Source of the DNA: Naegleria gruberi
Lineage: Eukaryota
Length of the DNA stretch: 64,000 nt
Direction: 5' to 3' (one strand)
NCBI GenBank assembly: GCA_000004985.1
Contig: GG738857.1
Numbering within the stretch: the stretch's first letter is position 1; every line of letters begins with the position of its first letter. Below are positions 4,722 to 55,935 of the stretch, one piece after another. Made by a program: the position numbers and the translations under genes. The notes beneath the pieces are model-generated. The model was not told the DNA's origin. It saw nothing but the letters and a program-made list of their open reading frames with translations, and ran no database searches.

Positions 4722-7199
4722 ATGAAAATAATTCCTCACCATCATCATTATAAGAAGAATATAATAACACATCTATTCAGTGTAACAAAAATATTCATCA
4801 TATTCATAATATTCACACAAATGTTATTATTAAATCATCTTTTAGTTCATTGTAAAGTAACACTTCAATCATCTGGATCAACATTTTCATCAATGGCTCA
4901 ATTAAATATTAAATCAATGTATACACTTGATATTTCACATTCAAATTCATTAGATTACACAGAGGAAGATTCCATAAGTGGAATTCGTAGAATGTTACTC
5001 ATTGAAGAACAACATCAAAATGATCTAGTTCATGTTGATTTTAATAGTGTTAAAACATTTCCATTCAATCAATTGAAAAGTATTCAAGAAGATTCAGTTT
5101 TTAAAGAGAAATCATATAATAATACAATGTGTATTGATAGTATGTTTGGAGTTTTGGTGTTTGCTATGAATGGTAATTTTGAAAATAACAAAATTTCTCA
5201 ATTATCTCTATCTTTGGAAAGTATTATTGATATTTATTTGGGAAATATTAAATATTGGGATGATTCTAGAATTGTAAATGAAAATCCAAACATAATTTTA
5301 CCATCAAATCAATTAATTTCTGTACTTTCAAGATCTTCAACAAGTGGAACAAGTTTAAATTTGTTAAATTATTTGGCAACACTTTCATCAGATTTTAATC
5401 AAAAGTTTAATTTTCTACTTTCAAATCCAACTTCCAAAATTAGAAATCTCAATTTAACTTCATTAACAACCAATTCAAATTTACTCATTCCAACAAATAA
5501 GGACATGTTAGAATACTTGAAAAATATGAAAGGTTCATTTGGATATACAAGTTTAAATGTTTATTCAAGTTTAACAAGTGAACAAAAAAGTAATGTCATT
5601 CTCATTAATTTAATTATTAATGGAAAGTCAATTGTACCATCTTTGGATAATGCAAAGAATACTATTTCTAAATTTGCTTCTTCTACTTTTAAATCAAGTG
5701 ATATTTATTCACAATCATTGTCAATTTCAAAATCTAATGAAAATCACTATCCACTCATTACATGTATATTTTGGTGTTTTAGACAATATCAATCATTGAG
5801 TGAAGATGGTGTTGCATTACTTCAATTCTTTACAAATTCATACAAGTATTTACAGAGCTCCACTCCAGTTACTACTACTACTACTACTACTTTAGAAACA
5901 ACCAGTACTGCTACGACAACTGATATGATCATGACAACTAGTTCATCAGTTAAGAATGCACTCAGAATGTATTTCAAGAGACAACAATCAACTTCAGAGG
6001 GAAGTTTGAGTGGTGTTATTGCACTTCCATCATGGCTCTCATCCAACAATTTGAAAATTATTGAACAAACTTTAATGTGTGAAAAAAAGTTGTGTTCCAC
6101 CATTCCAAAACCAACCAATGAGTATGTTACTCTATTCCTCCAAATTGCTCTCCCACTCTTAATTGTAATGGGATGTTGTGTTATGATTTTATTGATTGGT
6201 ATTGCAATTTATTGTATTAGAAAGAGAAGATTTAAATCACCTTCTCAACTCAATCAACAATTACTTCAAGATCAAGAAATTGAATATATGGAAGATAGTA
6301 CAACAGTTGCATCTACCTATACATTTACACCAAAACTCTTTGAAAAGGAACAATTGAAGAGTACAATTAGAACTGAAGAATTATCGCTTGATGAACAAAT
6401 TGGAAGTGGTTCATTCTCTGAAGTTTATAGAGGAAGATGGTTAGGAGCAACAGTTGCTGTCAAACGTTTCCTTGTCAATCATATTGAAAGTGATGAAATA
6501 GTTCAAGATTTTATTAAGGAATCTAAACTAATGTCTAAATTAAGACATCCAAATGTTGTTCAATTTATGGGAGTTTGTATTCAAATGCCACATTTATATA
6601 TGGTAACTGAATATTGTGAGAGAGGAAATTTACAACACATTCTCAAAGATAAGAAGATTAAAATTTCACTCAGAAAAACAATTTCAATGGCATTGGATGC
6701 TGCACGTGGAATGTACTATCTTCATACATGTGAAACTCCAATTATTCATAGAGATTTTAAGAGTGCCAATTTACTTGTTGATAAAAATTGGAGTGTTAAA
6801 GTTGGAGATTTTGGAATGTCAAGAATGATTGATTCTCAACAACAAATGACAGTTTGTGGAACAGCTGAAACATGTGCACCTGAAGTTTTAAAAAGAAGTA
6901 TGTATACAGAAAAGGCAGATGTCTATTCATTTGGTATTGTACTTTGGGAAATGTTTACAAGAAGTCAATTATATCCAGGAATGAATTTTTATGAGCTAAG
7001 TTCAAGAGTTGTAAATGAAGGTTTAAGACCAGATACAACAAGTACAAGATTTACTGAAGATCACATTCCAAAAACTATTCAAAATTTAATGACTGATTGT
7101 TGGGATGATGATCCAGATCATAGACCTGATTTTTCAATCATTGTTAAAAAATTAGAAAAGGAATTGGAAATTGAAAATCAAAAGAAGAATAAGGATTAA
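4722..7199 (+). CDS. receptor-like Ser/Thr (TKL-group) protein kinase with PstS-like phosphate-binding ectodomain
   Basis: 825 aa. Hydrophobic N-terminus, then an ectodomain carrying the PstS/phosphate-binding-protein motif IKYWDDSRIVNENPNIILPSNQLISVLSRSSTSGTSLNLLNYLA (compare bacterial PstS ..RxDGSGTTFxFTxYL..). A poly-Thr stalk (VTTTTTTTLETTSTATTT) precedes the TM helix IALPLLIVMGCCVMILLIGIAIYCI-RKRR. The kinase domain has GSGSFSEVY..VAVK, HRDFKSANLL, VGDFGMSR and CAPEV. Confidence 0.7.
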   Translation: MKIIPHHHHYKKNIITHLFSVTKIFIIFIIFTQMLLLNHLLVHCKVTLQSSGSTFSSMAQLNIKSMYTLDISHSNSLDYTEEDSISGIRRMLLIEEQHQNDLVHVDFNSVKTFPFNQLKSIQEDSVFKEKSYNNTMCIDSMFGVLVFAMNGNFENNKISQLSLSLESIIDIYLGNIKYWDDSRIVNENPNIILPSNQLISVLSRSSTSGTSLNLLNYLATLSSDFNQKFNFLLSNPTSKIRNLNLTSLTTNSNLLIPTNKDMLEYLKNMKGSFGYTSLNVYSSLTSEQKSNVILINLIINGKSIVPSLDNAKNTISKFASSTFKSSDIYSQSLSISKSNENHYPLITCIFWCFRQYQSLSEDGVALLQFFTNSYKYLQSSTPVTTTTTTTLETTSTATTTDMIMTTSSSVKNALRMYFKRQQSTSEGSLSGVIALPSWLSSNNLKIIEQTLMCEKKLCSTIPKPTNEYVTLFLQIALPLLIVMGCCVMILLIGIAIYCIRKRRFKSPSQLNQQLLQDQEIEYMEDSTTVASTYTFTPKLFEKEQLKSTIRTEELSLDEQIGSGSFSEVYRGRWLGATVAVKRFLVNHIESDEIVQDFIKESKLMSKLRHPNVVQFMGVCIQMPHLYMVTEYCERGNLQHILKDKKIKISLRKTISMALDAARGMYYLHTCETPIIHRDFKSANLLVDKNWSVKVGDFGMSRMIDSQQQMTVCGTAETCAPEVLKRSMYTEKADVYSFGIVLWEMFTRSQLYPGMNFYELSSRVVNEGLRPDTTSTRFTEDHIPKTIQNLMTDCWDDDPDHRPDFSIIVKKLEKELEIENQKKNKD

Positions 7200-20979: not shown

Positions 20980-22727
20980 ATGGTCATTATTTCTGTCAGT
21001 GTTATTTCAAAGGCTGGCAAGCCTCTCATCGCTAGACAATTCCGTGATATTAGCAGAGTTAGATTGGAGGGTTTGTTGAGTGCTTTCCCAAAATTGATGG
21101 ATCCAAAGTCCCAACACACCTTTGTTGAAACAGACTCTGTTAGATATGTATATCAATCATTGGATCAATTATTCCTCGTTTTGATCACTACAAAAACTAG
21201 TAATATTGTTGAAGATTTGGAAACTTTACAATTATTCTCTAGAATTGTATGTAAGATATTATTTATACAACAAACAACAACAACATTGATTAACTTTCAA
21301 TTTATTTGCGGAATTAGATTAAAGATATTTGTTTCTCCAATCAAAGAAACTCTGGAACAGGTATTGGTGAAGAAATTATTAGTGAAAATGCTTTCGATTT
21401 AATGTTTGCTTTTGATGAAATTGTATCATTAGGTTATAGAGAATCTGTATCATTGGGTCAAGTTAAAGATATTCTTAAAATGGATTCACAAGAAGAAAAT
21501 CTCCAAGAAGCTATCAAACAAAGACAAATCGAAAATGCCCAATCACATGCTACAATGAAGGCAACAGAAATTGCTATGCAAATTGCAAATAATGGAGGAA
21601 TTCGTACTGGTGGTATTTCAAGTGCAGATAGAGGTATCGGTTCAAGTGGAGGTTCAAGACCAACAGATGTTTATGTTCCACCATCAAATCAAGGAAAGTA
21701 TTCTGGTATTGGATCAGGATCTCGTGAAACATCCTCTAATGTTACTTCATCTTCGTCATCATCATCAGGAGGCTTACCAGCACAAAATACATCCGATAGA
21801 AAACTTAAGGAACAATCTAAACCAAGCAGTCTTAAACAAATGATTTTGAACAGACCAAATAGTAAGAAAGGTTCTCATTCTTTATTGAATGATCTTGTTT
21901 CTAAGGGAGATATTACTCCAACTATTGCTGAAAATACATCAGTACCAGTTTCAACAAAGATTGAATCTGTTGCTGAACAACAAAAGAAAGTTAAGGTTGA
22001 AGATATTCACTTACAAGTTAAGGAAACTTTACAAGTTGAAACAAATAGAGAAGGTGGATTAAATAGTTTGGATGTTAAGGGTGAAATGCACTTGGCAATT
22101 AACGAAACTGGAAACGGTTTTATCAAAGTTAGACTTGTAAATGATTTGAAGGATGGTTTTGTTTCTAAAATACATCCAAATATTGATAAGAAGGAATTTA
22201 GTGATCAACGTACTCTTGCTTTGAAGAGAACTGATAAACCATTCCCAACAGGTAATCCTCTCAAGATTTTAACATGGCGTTCACAAGGAAACTTTGATGA
22301 ATCTGTTTTACCTTTTACTGTAAATTGTTGGCCAAACCCTTCTGGTGGTGAAACTACAGTCAGTATCGAATATAATTTGCAAGACACCAGTGCAGAACTC
22401 CAAAATGTAACAATTTCTGTACCAATTCCAACAAAGGAAGTATCAGTTGAAAGTGCTGATGTTGGTACTTATAGAGTTGATCAAAAGAATGGAAAGTTCA
22501 TTTGGTCATTCGATTTAATTGATTCTTCATGTGCTAGTGGTAGCATTGAATTTGTAATTAATGAGAGAGCTGATGAATCAAGCTTCTTCCCTGTTGATGT
22601 TTCATTCACCTCTGAATACTCAATGTCAGGAACTGAAATTAGAGATGTTTTATCTGTAACTGATTCTTCTGAACAACGATATTCTGTAGAGAAATCTTTG
22701 ACTGTTGCTGAATATAAGATTGTTTAA
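20980..22727 (+). CDS. copD: coatomer subunit delta (COPI), 2 exons
   Basis: Exon 1 is 20980..21250 with a GTAAGA donor at 21251. A 110-nt intron ends acAG at 21360. Exon 2 is 21361..22727. The N-terminal longin domain ([65 protein letters not shown]) and the C-terminal mu-homology domain (..[20 protein letters not shown]..) match delta-COP/ARCN1. Confidence 0.85.
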
Positions 22728-33939: not shown

Positions 33940-36900
33940 ATGAAACACTTGTTGGATTTCGCGTATATGGGGAGGAAATTTTCACACGTTGATCACGATG
34001 GTCAATTAGTAACAAGGGAGTTTCGCAACTGTTTATTTATTCTAATGATTGCTGCTTGGATAACAATGTTGTGGTTGCCAGCACTTGCACATGGACAACA
34101 GTTAACAAAGACATTTTACATTGATTCGCTTCATGTTTCGAATACTAATTCATTCGAATGTGGAAATTCATCAAATCCATGCACTACAGTACAAGATGCT
34201 CTCAATTATTTTGCTTCGGATAGTTACATTCTAATTCAACACCAAATTTCCACCTCCAACACCTCCACACTCACCATTCAATTAACTTTCTTCATGTTAA
34301 ATGATGAACACAATTTTTGTGGTTACAATTTAAACACAACATTTAATGATAATATTGATTATGAATTGAGTTTTATTGGAAATGGGGTTTCTACATTGAC
34401 ATGTACGAAAGGGTATGGAGAGTTGAATTTCATTGAACCTCGTTTGGATATTTCAAAAGTGTTGTTTAGTCAACTTTCGTTGATTGGAGTGGTGTTTAAT
34501 TCATGTTCTTCTATTTCATTGACAGTTGTTAATTGTTTGATAACAGATGGTGGATTTATGACTTATTATCAACTCCAAGAATGTCCCAATTACGTTGCTT
34601 CGAACAGAACTATTCGAAACTTGTACCTTTCTAATATTTCCACATGGAATGGTGTTTTTTTAATTGGAAATGCAAAGAATGGGCTTATAGAGAATATTAG
34701 ATGTGATGGAGTTAGTGCCCTCTCATTCAATAATATGGAATCCATTCAACTTTCGAATGTTCAAATGCCTGGTGATGGATTATTCTCTTCTAACAATGTA
34801 AACTCTATCAGTTTCAAGAATTTCATTTCTACTGGACCTACATTCAACATCCACATTAGAGAATTTAAATCATTCACAATGGAAAGTAGTTCCTTTCAAA
34901 ACTATAAGTATTTTCAGTCAGCTGTCAACATTGACAGAGGAGAAAGTGCCAAAATTATTGATACAACAGTTCAATATTCCAGTCAATGGCTTTCTGCTAA
35001 AACTGTTAAGAAAATTGTCATTTCCAATTTAAGATTTTTGAATAATTATGTATTGGATGTTAGAACTTCCTTTTTAAGTCCAATTTTCATTTATAGTTGT
35101 GATAGTATTAAGATTGAGAATTCTTATTTTGATGGAAATTTTGGAACTAGATCTGGTCCAGTATTTATTGATGATTATTTGAATGTTGAAGTTTCGAATA
35201 ATACATTCATGAATGGTCGATCACTTGCTTCAGGTGGTGCCCTACATTTGGATAATTATCAAGCAGAATCATTATTAGAAAAGGCGACTGTTTTGATTAA
35301 GGATAATTTATTCCTTAATAACACATGTGAAAGAGTTGGTGGAGCTGTTTGCATTAATACTGTGGTCAATTGTGTTGTTACAGGAAACAAATTTATTAGA
35401 AATCAAGCAGTGGTCACTGGAGGTGCTCTTACTATTGCTGAGCATTGTAGAGATTGCCTTATTGAATCATACTTTGAAGAAAACAAGTCAATTGGAAATT
35501 ATTTAGAATTGGATTCGAATATTGTTTTTTCACAACAACTTTGGAATCGAATTATTGGAACTGGAGGTGCTCTTGCCATTTTCACAGAACCAAGATTTTC
35601 ATTTAGGATTTATGGATCTGTATTTGTGAGAAATTATGCAGGAAAAGGAGGAGCAATCCTAATGGGACTCAATTTACCAATTTCTCTCTCACAAAAAACT
35701 CCAACTTTTGTGCAAGATTGTAAATTTGAGGGAAATTTTGCAACCAAAACTGGAAATGATATTTATGCTGTGAATTTTCAAGCTCCTTTATCATATGTTA
35801 GAACTTTTATTAATCAAACAGAGGGAAATGAATATAGTTTCTCATCTAGTCCCGCCATTTTTAGAATTGTAAAGGTTAGCACTAACAAAGTTTATCCTGG
35901 TCAACCGATTGATATTGCATTCTATGTGGAGAATATATTTGGAAGGGAGATTGATATTGCATCTCAATATGTGGTTATTGATCAATTTCCTAACATGCTT
36001 CCTTTTTTGAATTATTCAAATGTTGACAGAAAGTCACTTGTCTTGACTCCTTATTCATTAACTACTGAAATGCCAATTGTTTCTCAATTTAATTTCTCAG
36101 TTTATTCAGAAGATCAAAAATTTTCAGCTAGTTTCCAATTCGAAATGTTTCCATGCCCAAAAAAGTTTATTCTACAAAAGAATGTTGCCTATTCTAATCT
36201 GGTCTATCAATGTGTGAGTGATAATAGTTTAGATCTTTCACTAGTTCTTGGACTGACTATTCCAATTGGAATTTTATTCTTAATTGTAGGAGCAATTTTG
36301 GGAGGATTGTCAGTTTATGCTATTCGATTCACACTTACACAAATTTCAATTCTCAAGACGAAACAAAGAGCTGAGAAGAGTCTTGAACAGAGAATTATAG
36401 ACAAGAAGATCATTTTCAATTCAGATCCTTCATCTGGTACCACTCACTATTCGAAATATAGTACAAATAGTGACCTTTCGGTTCCATTAATCGAAAATGG
36501 TAGCGCAGAAAAGAGTATGGCCACTCCATCCTTTGTCATTCCAATCGAAAGCATTGATATTATCAAAAAGTTAGCAGAAGGTGGATTAGGCATAATTTAT
36601 CTTGGTAAATTATGGAAGAAAATTGATGTTGCCATCAAATTACTGAAATCAAACGATCAAGATGAAGAATTTGAACAGGAAGTTTCCCTTCTAAGTTCAT
36701 TAAGACATGATAATATTGTTACATTTTATGGTATTTGTATGTCAGATGATGCCAAGTATATGATTACAGAGTTTGTTGAAAAGGGATCATTGGATAAAGC
36801 TCTGTACAAGTCAAGGATTGGAGAGGTGTCAATGTCAATTCAAAAGAAAATGTCAATATTGATAGCGACAGCAAGAGGAATTGAATATCTTCATGGATTA

Positions 36901-37557
36901 ACACCAACAGTTGTTCATCGTGATTTGGTATGTAATATTAGTTTCACAATTTCGCAATTAACATTGTTTTTTCTCTATTGGAAGAAACCTGGTAATATCC
37001 TATTGGAAGAAAAGAATCAAGCAAAGATTTGTGATTTTGGTATTTCAAGAACTGTGTCCAATGCAACTGTCCAACAAACAGCCATGACCACTAATTTAGG
37101 TACCTTAATCTATTGTCCAAATGAAGTAATTGAAGGACCTACTTTGACTAATAAGGCAAGCAAACAAACTGCCACCAAAATTGATATCTTTAGTTTCTCC
37201 GTAATTATGTGGGAAGTTTTCTTTGAAATTATTCCTTATTCACCATCGGTAGGAAAATTAACTCCACTATTTCAGTTATCAAAAGAGGAAAATGAAATGT
37301 TGAGTATGAATTCGTTTAATATTCCTTATTTTGTGGTGAAGGGAATGAGACCATTGATTCCATTCAGAACAGATGAGCAGATTAGAGAGTGGATTGAAAG
37401 ATACATGCCTGAACAGATTCACAATTCGAATATTGTTCAATTTGTAAATCGATTCTTTGCATTGGTTCAACAAGGTTGGTCAACTGATGCAACCAAGAGA
37501 CCAAATATTACAACTGTATTACAAGAACTTGAAGAACTGAATAATCTGATCAGATAG
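33940..37557 (+). CDS. receptor-like Ser/Thr (TKL) kinase with Pmp/parallel-beta-helix repeat ectodomain; in-frame 57-nt intron in catalytic loop
   Basis: Signal/TM N-terminus. The ectodomain carries repeated FxxN and GGA[ILV] motifs (NTFMNGRSLASGGALHL, NNTCERVGGAVCI, GNKFIRNQAVVTGGALTI, GTGGALAIF, GKGGAILM). TM helix LVLGLTIPIGILFLIVGAILGGLSVYAI. Kinase motifs VAIK and ICDFGISR are present. HRDL|KPGNILL is restored only after removing 36928..36984 (GTATGT..ttggaAG, 57 nt, no stop), so the ORF track reads through the intron. Confidence 0.7.
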   Translation: MKHLLDFAYMGRKFSHVDHDGQLVTREFRNCLFILMIAAWITMLWLPALAHGQQLTKTFYIDSLHVSNTNSFECGNSSNPCTTVQDALNYFASDSYILIQHQISTSNTSTLTIQLTFFMLNDEHNFCGYNLNTTFNDNIDYELSFIGNGVSTLTCTKGYGELNFIEPRLDISKVLFSQLSLIGVVFNSCSSISLTVVNCLITDGGFMTYYQLQECPNYVASNRTIRNLYLSNISTWNGVFLIGNAKNGLIENIRCDGVSALSFNNMESIQLSNVQMPGDGLFSSNNVNSISFKNFISTGPTFNIHIREFKSFTMESSSFQNYKYFQSAVNIDRGESAKIIDTTVQYSSQWLSAKTVKKIVISNLRFLNNYVLDVRTSFLSPIFIYSCDSIKIENSYFDGNFGTRSGPVFIDDYLNVEVSNNTFMNGRSLASGGALHLDNYQAESLLEKATVLIKDNLFLNNTCERVGGAVCINTVVNCVVTGNKFIRNQAVVTGGALTIAEHCRDCLIESYFEENKSIGNYLELDSNIVFSQQLWNRIIGTGGALAIFTEPRFSFRIYGSVFVRNYAGKGGAILMGLNLPISLSQKTPTFVQDCKFEGNFATKTGNDIYAVNFQAPLSYVRTFINQTEGNEYSFSSSPAIFRIVKVSTNKVYPGQPIDIAFYVENIFGREIDIASQYVVIDQFPNMLPFLNYSNVDRKSLVLTPYSLTTEMPIVSQFNFSVYSEDQKFSASFQFEMFPCPKKFILQKNVAYSNLVYQCVSDNSLDLSLVLGLTIPIGILFLIVGAILGGLSVYAIRFTLTQISILKTKQRAEKSLEQRIIDKKIIFNSDPSSGTTHYSKYSTNSDLSVPLIENGSAEKSMATPSFVIPIESIDIIKKLAEGGLGIIYLGKLWKKIDVAIKLLKSNDQDEEFEQEVSLLSSLRHDNIVTFYGICMSDDAKYMITEFVEKGSLDKALYKSRIGEVSMSIQKKMSILIATARGIEYLHGLTPTVVHRDLVCNISFTISQLTLFFLYWKKPGNILLEEKNQAKICDFGISRTVSNATVQQTAMTTNLGTLIYCPNEVIEGPTLTNKASKQTATKIDIFSFSVIMWEVFFEIIPYSPSVGKLTPLFQLSKEENEMLSMNSFNIPYFVVKGMRPLIPFRTDEQIREWIERYMPEQIHNSNIVQFVNRFFALVQQGWSTDATKRPNITTVLQELEELNNLIR

Positions 37558-37758: not shown

Positions 37759-38142
37759 ATGAACAAAATCGTTTCTGTCTGCATTCTTGCTCTCCTTGTC
37801 TTATCTGCTTGCTTGGTCAACTGTCAATACAGCAACAATTATGGTACCAATTATGGTTCATATGGAGGAGCTGGTTCTAACTATGGTGTCACTGGTGGAA
37901 ATTACAATCAATATGCTCAAAATACTCAATCCTATTTGAATCAAATTAATGCAGTCAACTCAAGTCCTTACTCAAGTTATGGATCTTCATATGTTGGCCC
38001 AACAAATTATGGTACTAACTATGGAAGTGCTTACTCAATGCCATTCTATGGTGGTTATGGAGGTTATGGTGTTCCTTATTATGGTGGTTATGGTGGTTAT
38101 GGTGGATATGGTGGTTGTGTTGGTGGTGTTAGATGGTGTTAA
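37759..38142 (+). CDS. small secreted Gly/Tyr/Asn-rich repeat protein
   Basis: 127 aa. Signal peptide MNKIVSVCILALLVLSACLVNC. Repeated NYG/YGGYGG units. Confidence 0.5.
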   Translation: MNKIVSVCILALLVLSACLVNCQYSNNYGTNYGSYGGAGSNYGVTGGNYNQYAQNTQSYLNQINAVNSSPYSSYGSSYVGPTNYGTNYGSAYSMPFYGGYGGYGVPYYGGYGGYGGYGGCVGGVRWC

Positions 38143-38263: not shown

Positions 38264-39249
38264 TTAAATCATGAATAGCATAAATAACATGCAGAAAATC
38301 AATCCAATTGATGAAATGGTGATAGAAACACTTCCAGAAATTGCAATTAAATTAGTAATAAATGATCCATAATTAAATCTATCCCCATATAATTTCACAG
38401 CACAAGAAGAGCAATTATTTCTATTTTTGGACAACCAGAAAAATAAATCAGAACCATCACCCAATAAGACGTGTATCTTCTTTGATAGAATCATTGCCCA
38501 TGCATCTTTATATTCATCCAAACGAATAATTGTTGCCTTTGGACAATTAGCTGTCACGTAGGCATCAAAAGTTGAAGTGTTGGCTACTGCAATAATTAAT
38601 CCAGCTTGATTTAAATCCTTTTCAGATGTTACAATATATGTGGTATTCTCCAATTCAGTTCTTAAAATTCCAGAATAACTATATCCATAAGCACCTTTCC
38701 AAAATTAGTAATTCCATAAATATTTTTAAAACAAAACCTACATTGAAAATGAGCATTGGCACCTCTTGAATCACTATAATGAGTTGATGCTACAGCAACA
38801 TCACAAACTCCCAAATTAACTGCATTTTGCAATGCTGGAAAATATCCCAACTGATTAATGTCAATCTCTGTAACATTAGCTGTCAATTTCAATGCTGGAT
38901 ATTGTGAAACAATTTCCTCCACAATCATTTGAGAGAATTTAGTGTAGATGACTGGCCAAGGATCCAGAGCTCCTTTATCATAACAAAATACCAAATAATT
39001 TCTTGAAATGTTAAATGATGAAGGATAGGAAAGAGATGACGAGGATGAACAAGTTGGCACACCGAGGAGGAAAGTAGTTTCGATTACATTGATCCACTCG
39101 GTTTTGGCAACGACTTTGGAAGCTGCTGTGTCTATAACTCGTTGGAAATTCTGTGTAATTTGATAGGGACTGCTTTGTCCACATAGAATGGTTAATAGAA
39201 GAAAGCAGACGAAAGTGATGGTCATGGATCCAATATTATTTCGATGCAT
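38264..39249 (-). CDS. bacterial-type solute-binding protein family 3 (SBP_bac_3 / PBP type II)-like protein with C-terminal hydrophobic GPI-signal-like tail, 2 exons
   Basis: Exon 1 is 39249..38742, from an ATGCAT start giving the signal peptide MHRNNIGSMTITFVCFLLLTILCG. GTAGGT donor and a 47-nt intron. Exon 2 is 38694..38264. SBP-like motifs include ..GVCDVAVASTHYSDSRGANAHF.. and ..TSEKDLNQAGLIIAVANTSTFDAYVTANCPKATIIRLDEYKDAWAMILSKKIHVLLGD... C-terminal tail ISGSVSITISSIGLIFCMLFMLFMI. Confidence 0.55.
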
Positions 39250-54507: not shown

Positions 54508-55935
54508 ATGTCCCAACAATACTTTTCTCGTCAATTAGTAGTATTCTGTCTAGTGGCGGCTCTTGCAATGACCTCTATGGTTCAGGGTCATACTATGACA
54601 ATGCATGCAAAGCTCGTCAATGTCATTCATCAAGTAAAGAACAAGATGGCAACAACTGTTACAGATCCAATTCCAACACGTCCTCCACAACTTCCATCTG
54701 CATTCAATGCAACAGTAACTACTACAGTACCATTCATTGGACAAGTCACTGGTCCTTTCTATTTTGATTATGACAATTCAAGAATGAGAACTGATGTTTC
54801 AATGTTTGGACAATCTCAAGCATCCATTGCTTTTTACAATGAAATGGTTCAATATGATATCATGTTACCAAATGGTCCATGTCAAGTGAAAAAATTGACA
54901 GATCCTATTTATCCATTCATTATTCCACCATTTGCCACATTTGTTGGATTTGAAAATGTCAATTCTAAAAATTGTCAACATTGGAACCTCCATTTGAGTC
55001 CATATATTATGGATTTTTATGTTTCATCAGATTCTAATGAAGATAATGGAAAGGATACTTATTATGTGGTTAGATTTACACTTTCTACTGATCCTACCTA
55101 TCCTATTCCAATGAATGTTCAAATGGATTTTGAAAATGTTCAAGTAGGTCCACAACCTGATTCACTTTTCTCAATTTGGAAGAATGCTGGTTGTCCAGTT
55201 CCAAAACCACCAACCTATTATTCTGTCAGTGGATACACAAAGAATGCTTTGAATGGACAAGTTATTCCAAATATTCAAGTTTCTTTGAGTTATGGAAATC
55301 AATATTTCAAAACTGCCTCAGATAAGAATGGTCTTTTCACATTTGACAAGGCCTTGGCAGGTTCAAATATTATTTTGAGTACTGAAGGTTTCACTAATGC
55401 AGGTTATCTTCCAATCAAGCAAAATATTTCATCACTTTCTGGTAACATTAACGCAGGAACAATTGCTGATTTGTTCTTGAGTCCAGTAATTCCATCAGGT
55501 CAATGGAGAGCCATCTTGAGTTGGGCTAGCTCACCTCGTGATTTGGATCTTCACATGATGATGCCAAATGGATGTCATACTTACTTTTCTAATAAGCAAT
55601 GTTTCACTCCTCAAGGAAATGCCACTTTGGATCACGATGTTAGAAATGGATTTGGTCCAGAAACTCTAACTCTTTCACCAAGTTCCAATGCAGCCAATTC
55701 TGAATTCAACTATTTTGTTTATAATTATAGTAATGAAGCAAGTTATGTGAAATCTCAAGCCCTTGTAAAGATTTACAATAGTGCAGGATTTGTTAATCAA
55801 ATTCAAATTCCAACAAGTGGATATGATACAAGTGCTCGTTACTGGAAAGTTTTCAAGTTGGTTATTGATGGAAGTGGTCAACCTCAAGTCAAAATTATCA
55901 ACACAGTTTCTCAAACTAATTTAATAGTTTATTAA
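54508..55935 (+). CDS. secreted protein with carboxypeptidase-regulatory-like (transthyretin-fold) segment
   Basis: 475 aa. Signal peptide MSQQYFSRQLVVFCLVAALAMTSMVQG. A central segment (SVSGYTKNALNGQVIPNIQVSLSYGNQYFKTASDKNGLFTF) fits the CarboxypepD_reg pattern. The rest is unassigned. Confidence 0.5.
   Translation: MSQQYFSRQLVVFCLVAALAMTSMVQGHTMTMHAKLVNVIHQVKNKMATTVTDPIPTRPPQLPSAFNATVTTTVPFIGQVTGPFYFDYDNSRMRTDVSMFGQSQASIAFYNEMVQYDIMLPNGPCQVKKLTDPIYPFIIPPFATFVGFENVNSKNCQHWNLHLSPYIMDFYVSSDSNEDNGKDTYYVVRFTLSTDPTYPIPMNVQMDFENVQVGPQPDSLFSIWKNAGCPVPKPPTYYSVSGYTKNALNGQVIPNIQVSLSYGNQYFKTASDKNGLFTFDKALAGSNIILSTEGFTNAGYLPIKQNISSLSGNINAGTIADLFLSPVIPSGQWRAILSWASSPRDLDLHMMMPNGCHTYFSNKQCFTPQGNATLDHDVRNGFGPETLTLSPSSNAANSEFNYFVYNYSNEASYVKSQALVKIYNSAGFVNQIQIPTSGYDTSARYWKVFKLVIDGSGQPQVKIINTVSQTNLIVY

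What the first reader, a model, noticed from the sequence alone, without database searches (positions are those of the whole stretch)
38264..39249. Third bacterial-type surface module in the window: SBP_bac_3-like solute-binding protein with GPI-signal-like tail
A signal peptide, a type-II periplasmic-binding (amino-acid-ABC SBP-like) fold and a C-terminal hydrophobic tail suggest a GPI-anchored ligand-binding protein. Together with the PstS-kinase (4722) and the Pmp-repeat kinase (33940), three cell-surface genes in 35 kb use domains best known from bacteria. That fits surface sensing of bacterial prey or nutrients, or old horizontal acquisitions.
Basis: partly seen in the sequence, partly recalled or inferred. 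Interest (0 to 1): 0.5.

Follow-up and report, generated by a model that had tools for sequence, protein, structure and literature searches.

The report
Permuted, lipid-tethered solute-binding surface protein
This amoeba gene (from a relative of Naegleria) encodes a cell-surface protein built from a bacterial-type amino-acid-binding "Venus flytrap" domain whose end helices have moved to the front and whose tail looks like a signal for a lipid (GPI) anchor; its architecture is unusual, but it belongs to a family that databases already label automatically, and its function is untested.

Summary
Window 39249-38264 (minus strand) is a real two-exon gene with a 47-nt intron, encoding 312 aa: signal peptide, solute-binding fold, and a hydrophobic tail that ends at the C-terminus.

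Pfam does not detect the protein itself. It belongs to a family of about 70 representative sequences; every named member is heterolobosean (Naegleria gruberi, N. fowleri, N. lovaniensis, Willaertia magna). 21 of 39 aligned members hit SBP_bac_3.

The ligand-anchoring Arg162 (38/39) and Asp249 (30/39) are conserved, while neighbouring pocket positions vary.

New here: the family is circularly permuted. The helices that end canonical binding proteins sit at its N-terminus, and the fold stops about six residues before a GPI-type attachment site (S289-G290-S291).

Best reading: a GPI-tethered receptor for an amino-acid-like ligand that acts through an unknown partner. Anchor, ligand and partner are inferred. 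Functional linkage with the two receptor kinases in the window is untested. Interest is moderate.

The parts
38264..39249 (-). Whole gene: ATG to stop, two exons, 312-aa product
   Evidence: An independent 98%-identical contig, L001, covers it.
38742..39249 (-). Exon 1 (aa 1-169 plus the first base of the Cys170 codon)
38695..38741 (-). 47-nt GT..AG intron
   Evidence: Removing it restores the frame and the conserved FxCxYG motif. L001 has a 7-nt deletion and 2 substitutions inside it.
38264..38694 (-). Exon 2 (rest of the Cys170 codon to aa 312, plus the TAA stop at 38264-38266)
39172..39249 (-). Predicted signal peptide (aa 1-26; cleavage probably after G-Q-S)
   Evidence: Read directly from the sequence: charged n-region, hydrophobic MTITFVCFLLLTILC, small residues at -3 and -1. 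The same feature occurs across the family. No predictor was run.
39064..39168 (-). N-terminal helical hairpin (aa 28-62), the counterpart of the C-terminal helices of canonical SBP_bac_3 proteins (the permuted segment)
   Evidence: The AF2 model has helices 33-48 and 50-59. hhalign gives an alternative alignment of query 23-64 to bacterial template 184-225, P 0.027. The N-terminal sub-profile hits the C-terminal helices of SBPs in the PDB. Family members hit positions 188-226 of a bacterial-only HMM, with no shuffled segment scoring as high. Artificial re-permutation restores a collinear Pfam match.
38354..39000 (-). Two-lobed binding core (aa 84-283; the span includes the intron), collinear with positions 3-194 of canonical bacterial binding domains
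38764..38766 (-). Arg162 codon, the counterpart of GlnBP Arg75 (binds the ligand alpha-carboxylate)
   Evidence: Aligned. Conserved in 38/39 family members. The role of the residue in GlnBP is recalled from the literature.
38456..38458 (-). Asp249 codon, the counterpart of GlnBP Asp157 (binds the ligand alpha-ammonium)
   Evidence: Aligned. Asp in 30/39 members and Glu in 4/39.
38267..38338 (-). GPI-attachment-signal-like C-terminus (aa 289-312): candidate omega site S289-G290-S291, spacer VSITISS, hydrophobic IGLIFCMLFMLFMI ending at the stop codon
   Evidence: pLDDT drops to 56 at residues 291-300, consistent with a flexible linker. The same layout, with unrelated tail sequences, is found in nearly all full-length family members.

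Best explanation
The gene encodes a secreted, probably N-glycosylated and disulfide-bonded Venus-flytrap protein of the bacterial polar-amino-acid solute-binding type (SBP_bac_3, a class-II periplasmic-binding fold). It belongs to a multigene family in which every member with a source name is from Heterolobosea (Naegleria, Willaertia).

The family is a circular permutant of the canonical fold. The two helices that end canonical binding proteins come first (aa 28-62). A ~20-residue Cys-containing linker follows, then the core that corresponds to canonical positions 3-194 (aa 84-283). The fold stops at the last lobe-1 strand.

About six residues later lies a GPI-type attachment signal (omega site around S289-S291, then a 14-residue hydrophobic tail with no cytoplasmic residues). 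The mature protein would therefore sit on the outer leaflet of the plasma membrane, held close by lobe 1, with lobe 2 free to close.

The cleft keeps the Arg (R162) and Asp (D249) that grip the carboxylate and ammonium groups of an alpha-amino acid in bacterial homologues. Neighbouring pocket positions differ among paralogues. The family therefore most likely binds a range of amino acids or amino-acid-like small molecules.

With no transmembrane or cytoplasmic part, the protein must pass its information or cargo to another membrane protein, or be internalised by endocytosis.

Shown here: gene structure, family membership, fold, permuted order in family members, conservation of the anchoring residues, and tail layout. 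Inferred: GPI addition, ligand class, and the downstream partner.
For: Gene model and purifying selection.

Family: 104 hits among 1.84 billion representatives, of which about 70 share the same layout. All 19 members with a source name are from Naegleria gruberi, N. lovaniensis, N. fowleri or Willaertia magna. Several are auto-named 'Solute-binding protein family 3/N-terminal domain-containing protein'.

Homology to bacterial SBPs:
- 21/39 family members hit PF00497, best E 3.6e-17.
- The family profile against the PDB gives 5e-25 to AncCDT-1, then Glu/Gln/Arg binding proteins.
- hhalign gives probability 99.4%.
- An HMM built only from bacterial domains scores the query at 62.7 bits.

Permutation: and the shuffle control (0 of 2250 shuffles reach 10 bits; 6 of 45 real N-termini do, all at HMM positions 186-226).

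Ligand anchors: R162 38/39, D249 30/39 plus 4 Glu, S/T210 37/39, with variable positions 155, 157, 211 and 248.

Extracellular character: six conserved Cys and five N-x-S/T sequons.

Tail.

Eukaryotic setting: an intron, GC 0.33 as in the flanks, and neighbours such as coatomer delta, SHQ1 and a mitochondrial carrier.
Against: - The protein itself gives no Pfam hit, in native or re-permuted order.
- The bacterial-only HMM does not detect its N-terminal helix (-3.3 bits). For this particular member the permutation therefore rests on its alignment with relatives, a P=0.027 hhalign alternative alignment, and the AF2 secondary structure.
- I could not obtain the model coordinates, so I could not check that helices 33-59 occupy the spatial site of the canonical C-terminal helices.
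- No GPI predictor was available, and the GPI machinery of this organism was not examined. Only a passing statement about GPI-anchored proteins in Naegleria was found (PMC9928731).
- The tail could instead be an uncleaved membrane anchor.
- The position equivalent to GlnBP Thr70 is His in this protein. No ligand was docked or tested.
- No partner is identified.
Confidence: 0.6

Rival explanations
1. Same binding domain, but anchored by an uncleaved C-terminal transmembrane helix (a type-I protein with no cytoplasmic tail) rather than by GPI.
For: The last 21 residues (VSITISSIGLIFCMLFMLFMI) are long enough to span a bilayer. The permuted, prokaryote-looking relatives P0096 and P0104 end in a hydrophobic helix followed by RRKK, which is a transmembrane or sorting-signal anchor. 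No GPI predictor or experiment was available.
Against: Most family members that reach the C-terminus have 0-5 residues after the hydrophobic run, usually without a basic stop-transfer cluster. An S/G/N/A-rich stretch with small residues lies 7-10 residues upstream. The tail sequences are unconserved while the layout is conserved, which is the usual signature of a cleaved GPI signal.
Confidence: 0.2
2. A variable surface-coat or adhesion protein that has kept the flytrap scaffold but no longer binds a small ligand. The multigene family would serve surface diversity or attachment.
For: The family is large and fast-diverging, down to 18-25% identity among paralogues. Members are predicted to be lipid-tethered. 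Some carry EGF-like additions (P0064, P0102). The fold-level comparator PfVFT1, a eukaryotic flytrap protein, is studied as a surface antigen with no defined ligand (PMC13199436).
Against: The ligand-anchoring Arg is kept in 38/39 members and the Asp in 30/39 (plus 4 Glu), despite about 25% mean column identity. That is hard to explain without selection for binding.
Confidence: 0.12
3. An extracellular enzyme or enzyme-regulatory module derived from a solute-binding protein, such as a cyclohexadienyl-dehydratase-like protein or an MltF-like regulatory domain.
Against: The best hits (AncCDT-1, AncQR) are reconstructed binding proteins, not enzymes. Their consensus-like sequences naturally score high against a profile. 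Glu/Gln/Arg binding proteins follow closely. The Asp that binds the alpha-ammonium group is retained. No catalytic domain is attached.
Confidence: 0.04
4. A detached or decayed ligand-binding domain of a eukaryotic ionotropic glutamate receptor or class-C receptor (the outcome that would refute the first reader).
Against: The domain is continuous, with no channel segment. The family profile scores a recalled GluA2 S1S2 construct at 11 bits (E 1.6) against 40 bits for GlnBP. No eukaryotic iGluR is among the best 60 PDB profile hits. No class-I (ANF_receptor) fold is among the top matches. The family is conserved, and this gene appears to be under purifying selection (small numbers).
Confidence: 0.03

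Closest known systems
Bacterial polar-amino-acid solute-binding proteins (Pfam SBP_bac_3, PF00497; e.g. E. coli GlnBP, ArtJ, LAO-binding protein; class F / type II periplasmic-binding fold)
   Different: This protein is circularly permuted, with the terminal helices at the N-terminus. It has six conserved cysteines and N-glycosylation sequons. It has a eukaryotic signal peptide, an intron, and a GPI-type C-terminal signal. No ABC importer partner is known. The protein itself falls below Pfam detection.
Membrane-tethered binding domains of Gram-positive bacteria and archaea: lipoprotein SBPs, and the tandem SBD1-SBD2 domains fused to the GlnPQ permease
   Same: Both hold a binding domain at the membrane surface by a short tether (lipid or linker). 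The nearest non-family sequence hits are tandem multi-SBD proteins (P0073, P0084, P0091, P0098, P0103). GlnPQ SBDs appear in the PDB hit lists.
   Different: Those domains are tethered at the N-terminus or fused to a permease, and they keep the canonical order. Here the tether is C-terminal and of a eukaryotic type. An out-of-register unit cut from such a tandem array would give exactly the permuted order seen here; this is an inference and was not tested.
Permuted prokaryote-looking relatives P0096 and P0104 (unnamed proteins from public sequencing-run assemblies)
   Same: They have the same permuted order: a signal, then the terminal helices (which match positions 186-225 of the bacterial HMM at about 18-21 bits), then a linker, then a core ending at position ~194, then a C-terminal membrane anchor.
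   Different: They remain strongly SBP_bac_3-like (103-108 bits), are acidic, and have Thr-rich linkers. They lack the Cys pattern. Their anchor is a hydrophobic helix plus RRKK rather than a GPI-like tail. Their organism is unknown; the contig L002 has GC 0.35.
PfVFT1 (Plasmodium falciparum PF3D7_0606800, PDB 5jkq), a stand-alone eukaryotic Venus-flytrap protein
   Same: It is a small secreted protist protein with a signal peptide and an SBP-like two-lobed fold. It is found in membrane fractions (PMC13199436). Foldseek aligns 291 columns, almost the whole query (E 6e-10).
Ligand-binding domains of ionotropic glutamate receptors (including bacterial GluR0)
   Different: The iGluR domain is split by the channel segment and is part of a channel subunit. 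Sequence similarity to eukaryotic iGluRs is insignificant.
GPI-anchored nutrient-binding proteins of animals (folate receptor; melanotransferrin, which also has a type-II binding-protein fold). This comparison comes from my own knowledge.
   Same: A small-ligand-binding ectodomain is held on the outer leaflet by GPI and acts through endocytosis or a partner.
   Different: The families and ligands are unrelated. This is an analogy of architecture only and was not tested here.

Membership tests
SBP_bac_3 (PF00497) solute-binding proteins | The protein itself reaches the curated Pfam score | tested here: not met
   No Pfam family at E<=10, for the native sequence or for the artificially re-permuted sequence. 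NCBIfam gives only weak hits (GrrP-type orphan SBP, E 5.5e-4, far below its cut-off).
SBP_bac_3 (PF00497) solute-binding proteins | Homology to the family shown by profile methods or through relatives | tested here: met
   21/39 aligned relatives hit PF00497, best E 3.6e-17. The family profile against the PDB reaches 5e-25 on amino-acid SBPs. hhalign probability is 99.4%, E 1.3e-21. The bacterial-only HMM scores the query at 62.7 bits. phmmer finds the bacterial protein P0073 at E 2.4e-9 in 1.84 billion proteins.
SBP_bac_3 (PF00497) solute-binding proteins | Two-lobed alpha/beta type-II periplasmic-binding fold | tested here: met
SBP_bac_3 (PF00497) solute-binding proteins | Canonical order of elements, with the helical hairpin at the C-terminus | tested here: not met
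   The core matches template positions 3-194 and then stops. The N-terminal segment matches positions 184-226. Re-permuting three relatives turns a two-piece Pfam match into one collinear match that runs to profile position 130-131 of 132.
SBP_bac_3 (PF00497) solute-binding proteins | Arg and Asp that bind the alpha-carboxylate and alpha-ammonium groups of an amino-acid ligand | tested here: met
   R162 aligns with GlnBP R75 and D249 with D157. Conservation is 38/39 and 30/39 (plus 4 Glu). The roles of these residues in GlnBP are recalled from the literature.
SBP_bac_3 (PF00497) solute-binding proteins | Delivers its ligand to an ABC importer or another membrane partner | not testable with these tools
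   No ABC permease or ATPase gene lies next to it in the window. Eukaryotic gene order says little about partnership.
Heterolobosean permuted SBP family (unnamed) | Signal peptide, N-terminal 'AIDAA' helix, the six conserved Cys of the family, near-invariant Y117/R162/A223, and a hydrophobic C-terminal tail | tested here: met
   Alignment A1. The best relatives are 39-42% identical (N. gruberi P0002, N. lovaniensis P0004).
GPI-anchored proteins | N-terminal ER signal peptide | tested here: met
   Read from the sequence and seen across the family. No predictor was run.
GPI-anchored proteins | C-terminal hydrophobic stretch ending at or near the last residue, preceded by a short polar spacer and small residues at omega and omega+2 | tested here: met
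   S289-G290-S291, spacer VSITISS, then 14 hydrophobic residues to the stop codon. The same layout occurs in nearly all full-length relatives.
GPI-anchored proteins | Actual cleavage and GPI attachment, and the presence of the transamidase in the organism | not testable with these tools
   No predictor or proteome was available. The literature searches found only a passing remark on GPI-anchored proteins in Naegleria (PMC9928731).
Ionotropic glutamate receptor ligand-binding domain | Binding domain split by a pore-forming transmembrane segment (Lig_chan), with sequence affinity to PF10613/PF00060 | tested here: not met
   The domain is continuous and there is no channel segment. The recalled GluA2 S1S2 construct scores 11 bits, E 1.6. 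Only 2/39 relatives hit PF10613.
Class-C GPCR / ANF_receptor (type-I binding fold, GABA-B-like) | Type-I periplasmic-binding fold and an ANF_receptor profile match | tested here: not met
   There is no such Pfam hit in the query or in 39 relatives. None appears among the top 50-60 fold matches.
Cyclohexadienyl dehydratase | Catalytic residues of the dehydratase active site | not tested
   Only overall similarity to the lineage and its reconstructed, non-enzymatic ancestors was seen.

The most novel reading that the evidence does not exclude
Heterolobosean amoebae carry a diversified set of circularly permuted, GPI-tethered amino-acid receptors. These arose from an out-of-register unit of a prokaryotic tandem binding-domain array. 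They work as detachable ligand-sensing subunits for membrane signalling proteins such as the many receptor kinases of these amoebae. This would be a eukaryotic counterpart of binding-protein-dependent chemoreception in bacteria, used to find bacterial prey or nutrients.
Probability: 0.12. Interest if true: 0.7.

Novelty: new variant of a known kind. Interest (0 to 1): 0.4.

Why it matters
Solute-binding domains are the ancestors of the ligand-binding parts of glutamate receptors and other eukaryotic receptors. Free-standing, membrane-tethered copies in eukaryotes are barely studied.

This family offers three things. First, it is a natural circular permutation of a very well-characterised fold, which appears to go together with a switch to C-terminal membrane tethering; that is useful for protein-evolution and biosensor work. 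Second, it asks what a eukaryote does with amino-acid binding proteins when no ABC importer is known to receive the ligand. Third, it is a candidate class of surface ligand receptors in Naegleria, a genus that includes the brain-infecting N. fowleri, which has at least two members of the family.

The finding rests on prediction only. The domain type was already flagged by automatic annotation of Naegleria homologues.

Tried and rejected
- Pfam on the protein itself gave nothing, even at E<=10, and again nothing after artificial re-permutation.
- Single-sequence AlphaFold was useless (pLDDT 34). It was replaced by the run with the family alignment.
- The word-indexed protein search found only two fragments of the same gene. 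With the family alignment it found almost nothing new. The exhaustive HMMER search was what revealed the family.
- The afdb50 fold library was not available, so the taxonomic spread of the fold among UniProt eukaryotes could not be surveyed.
- tblastn of the protein against the window found no paralogue in these 64 kb.
- The literature searches found no description of this family, of a GPI-anchored SBP_bac_3 protein, or of a natural circular permutation of family-3 binding proteins. The terms were Naegleria + solute-binding protein, Naegleria + GPI, SBP_bac_3 + GPI, and circular permutation + solute-binding protein. The library is incomplete, so this is not proof of absence.
- The PfVFT1 structure paper (PMC5563136) is not held, so I could not check whether PfVFT1 has the same permuted order.
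- NCBIfam did not name the C-terminal sorting signal of P0096 or P0104.
- Considered and rejected: bacterial contamination (there is an intron, the composition is native, and the neighbours are eukaryotic), an iGluR fragment, and a class-C receptor ectodomain (see the rival explanations).
- The idea that the three 'bacterial-type' surface genes form a functional cluster was not pursued. Nothing in the window allows it to be tested.

Full report
1. WHAT IS IN THE SEQUENCE

The window is AT-rich (GC about 0.32 throughout). It carries ordinary eukaryotic genes: coatomer delta, SHQ1, an EF-hand mitochondrial carrier, F-box/LRR proteins and receptor kinases.

On the minus strand an ATG at 39249 opens a reading frame that stops prematurely. 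A second frame continues to the stop codon at 38266-38264. Removing a 47-nt GT..AG intron (38741-38695) joins them into a 939-nt CDS of 312 aa.

Two results support the splice. First, it recreates the motif F-Q-C-A-Y-G, with the Cys170 codon split by the intron; that Cys is present in 37 of 39 relatives. Second, an independent 1.3-kb contig from a public sequencing run (L001, ERR1078381) is 98% identical. It carries a 7-nt deletion and two substitutions inside the intron, whereas the mature domain has three synonymous and no non-synonymous differences. The two amino-acid changes fall in the signal peptide and in the hydrophobic tail. The numbers are small, but they fit an expressed gene under purifying selection.

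2. WHOSE GENOME

The coatomer delta subunit encoded at 21402-22727 is 69% identical to that of Naegleria fowleri and 57% identical to that of Willaertia magna. The target protein has no exact match in the public protein sets: the word-indexed search returned only fragments of the gene itself from a public sequencing-run assembly. The source is therefore a heterolobosean amoeba close to Naegleria. Beyond that, I could not identify the species.

3. THE FAMILY

The word-indexed search found only fragments of the gene itself. The exhaustive HMMER search of 1.84 billion representatives found 104 proteins (66 with E<=1e-10). About 70 of these are roughly 300-aa proteins with the same layout.

All 19 members that carry a source name are from N. 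gruberi, N. lovaniensis, N. fowleri or W. magna, with several paralogues per species. UniProt auto-names several of them 'Solute-binding protein family 3/N-terminal domain-containing protein'. The remainder come from unnamed metagenomes and sequencing-run assemblies. The best relatives are only 39-42% identical, and many are 20-30% identical. The family is therefore old and diverse within the lineage.

4. WHAT FOLD, AND WHICH RELATIVES

The protein itself escapes Pfam even at E<=10. It has only a marginal PDB hit, 1xt8 at E 0.0045.

Through the family, the assignment is firm:
- 21 of 39 aligned members hit SBP_bac_3 (best E 3.6e-17). Only 2 hit the iGluR model Lig_chan-Glu_bd.
- The family profile searched against all PDB sequences is led by bacterial polar-amino-acid binding proteins: AncCDT-1 at 5e-25, then glutamate, glutamine and arginine binding proteins. 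No eukaryotic iGluR chain is among the best 60.
- Profile-profile comparison with 16 canonical bacterial domains gives probability 99.4%, E 1.3e-21.
- The family HMM scores E. coli GlnBP at 40.4 bits. 

The fold alone cannot separate bacterial binding proteins from iGluR domains, because they are homologous. Sequence profiles and the uninterrupted domain do separate them.

5. A CIRCULAR PERMUTATION (NEW IN THIS ANALYSIS)

The AF2 model has two helices (residues 33-48 and 50-59) before the first strand and none after the last strand. The main hhalign alignment covers query 84-287 against template positions 3-194 of 226 and stops there. An alternative alignment pairs query 23-64 with template 184-225 (P 0.027). 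Four further tests followed.

(a) An HMM built only from canonical bacterial domains matches the core of family members at positions ~2-195. It also matches the N-terminal 20-86 residues of six of them (P0096, P0104, P0058, P0079, P0078, P0095) at positions 186-226.

(b) As a control, I searched 2250 shuffled N-terminal segments. None reached 10 bits, and none reached 5 bits within HMM positions 180-227. Six of 45 real N-termini reach 10 bits or more, all in that region.

(c) I built a 75-position profile of the family's N-terminal region and searched it against the whole PDB. The best hit is the C-terminal helix of a bacterial glutamate-binding protein (5eyf, residues 209-235 of 245, E 0.034). 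Nineteen of the 23 hits below E 10 are amino-acid binding proteins: 18 are matched at their last helix, and the GlnPQ tandem chain 6h30 is matched at the last helix of its first domain. Each hit is weak on its own, but they all fall in the same place.

(d) I moved the N-terminal helices of three relatives to the C-terminus by hand. In each case this converted a two-piece partial Pfam SBP_bac_3 match into a single collinear match running to profile position 130-131 of 132, with a gain of 4-5 bits.

For the window's own protein, the bacterial HMM does not see the N-terminal helix. For this member the permutation therefore rests on its alignment with those relatives, on the hhalign alternative alignment, and on the model's secondary structure. 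I could not superpose coordinates.

Two permuted relatives, P0096 and P0104, look prokaryotic. They are acidic, have Thr-rich linkers and lack the Cys pattern. They end in a hydrophobic helix plus RRKK, and P0096 sits among closely spaced genes on a contig of GC 0.35. The permutation may therefore predate the eukaryotic family.

The nearest canonical hits are tandem multi-domain binding proteins. A unit cut out of register from such an array has exactly the permuted order. That origin is an inference.

6. THE TAIL

After the last strand (ending I282/T283) come N-L-I-A-I. These are followed by S289-G290-S291, the spacer VSITISS, and 14 hydrophobic residues up to the stop codon. Model confidence falls to 56 at residues 291-300.

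Most family members whose gene models reach the C-terminus show a 14-23 residue hydrophobic run ending 0-5 residues from the end. It is preceded by an S/G/N/A-rich stretch. The tail sequences themselves are unrelated. This is the classical layout of a cleaved GPI-attachment signal, and it is unlike a type-I anchor with a basic cytoplasmic stop-transfer. No predictor or experiment was available, and I found only a passing literature remark on GPI-anchored proteins in Naegleria (PMC9928731). I put GPI anchoring at about 0.7.

Five N-x-S/T sequons and six cysteines conserved across the family, including C89, C149 and C170 at 34-37 of 39 members, fit an extracellular protein.

7. THE POCKET

In the HMM alignment to GlnBP, R162 pairs with R75 and D249 with D157. 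S210 pairs with T118, and S155 and H157 pair with G68 and T70. In GlnBP these residues hold the carboxylate and ammonium groups of the bound amino acid; this is my recollection of the 1WDN literature.

Across 39 relatives the Arg is present in 38 and the Asp in 30 (plus 4 Glu). Position 210 is Ser or Thr in 37. Positions 155, 157, 211 and 248 vary widely. Conserved anchors next to variable neighbours suggest a panel of receptors for different amino acids or related compounds. This is an inference, and I rate it at roughly 0.5.

8. MECHANISM AND RIVALS

The most likely picture is a flytrap domain held close to the outer leaflet by a very short tether on lobe 1. It closes on an amino-acid-like ligand and then either presents it to, or signals through, another membrane protein, or is taken up by endocytosis. 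The partner is unknown.

The rivals are:
- an uncleaved transmembrane tail (about 0.2);
- a coat or adhesion protein with a vestigial pocket (about 0.12), which the conserved Arg and Asp argue against;
- an enzyme derived from a binding protein (about 0.04);
- a detached iGluR or class-C receptor domain (about 0.03).

9. THE 'THREE BACTERIAL-TYPE SURFACE MODULES' IDEA

The protein encoded at 4722-7199 does combine a PstS-type PBP_like_2 domain (E 7e-8) with a kinase domain.

The protein at 33940-37557 is a kinase with a large ectodomain. Its only Pfam signal is a sub-threshold Chlam_PMP repeat (16.9 bits against a 20.6 cut-off). It also has five GGA[ILV] and several FxxN motifs.

The description is therefore largely right. 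However, the genes are not adjacent in any operon-like sense, no paralogue of the binding protein lies in the window, and nothing tested here links them functionally.

10. NOVELTY AND VERDICT

The domain type is known, and homologues are already labelled automatically. What I did not find described in the searchable literature is the family itself, its GPI-type tether, or the natural circular permutation. I rate this a new variant of a known kind, of moderate interest. It is a tidy case for protein evolution and a testable candidate receptor class in Naegleria, but it rests entirely on prediction so far.

Noticed in passing
window 4722-7199 (+): An 825-aa ORF combines a PstS-type phosphate-binding-protein-like domain (PBP_like_2, residues 122-283, E 7e-8 for the whole ORF) with a C-terminal protein kinase domain (E 1e-66). 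This is a binding-protein ectodomain wired directly to a kinase.
   Followed up: partly
window 33940-37557 (+): A 1205-aa receptor-kinase ORF whose ectodomain has five GGA[ILV] motifs and several FxxN motifs. Its Chlam_PMP repeat hit is sub-threshold (16.9 bits against a cut-off of 20.6). The kinase domain is matched in two pieces around 'VCNISFTISQLTLFFLYWK', which looks like an unspliced in-frame intron.
   Followed up: partly
window 37759-38142 (+): A small 127-aa ORF lies between the kinase and the binding-protein gene. It has a signal-peptide-like start and is rich in Gly, Tyr, Asn and Ser, ending in GYGGYGGYGG repeats. It has no Pfam hit.
   Followed up: no
L002 1470-2480 (P0096); also P0104: These prokaryote-looking relatives have the same circularly permuted order, but with acidic and Thr-rich linkers and a C-terminal hydrophobic helix plus RRKK (a sorting-signal-like anchor). 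The contig has GC 0.35, and its neighbour is a BNR/PSII_BNR-type protein. The organism is unknown.
   Followed up: partly
P0002 (N. gruberi NAEGRDRAFT_68554); P0006 and P0021 (N. lovaniensis C9374_002538 and C9374_002535): The N. gruberi gene model holds two tandem copies of the domain. Two N. lovaniensis paralogues have locus tags three apart on one contig. The family therefore expands by local duplication.
   Followed up: no
P0064, P0102, P0099 (relatives from metagenomes and sequencing-run assemblies): Some family members carry EGF-like or Cys-rich modules after the binding domain, so the domain is also used in larger surface proteins.
   Followed up: no
window 21402-22727 (+): The coatomer delta ORF is 441 aa, against 554 aa for the N. 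fowleri orthologue. The Pfam scan of this ORF reports only the adaptor mu-homology domain, whereas more distant delta-COP homologues in the hit table also carry an N-terminal Clat_adaptor_s (PF01217) domain. An upstream exon probably lies beyond an intron.
   Followed up: no
window 54508-55935 (+): A 475-aa ORF has a weak, sub-threshold Ependymin match (24.5 bits against a cut-off of 32.3).
   Followed up: no
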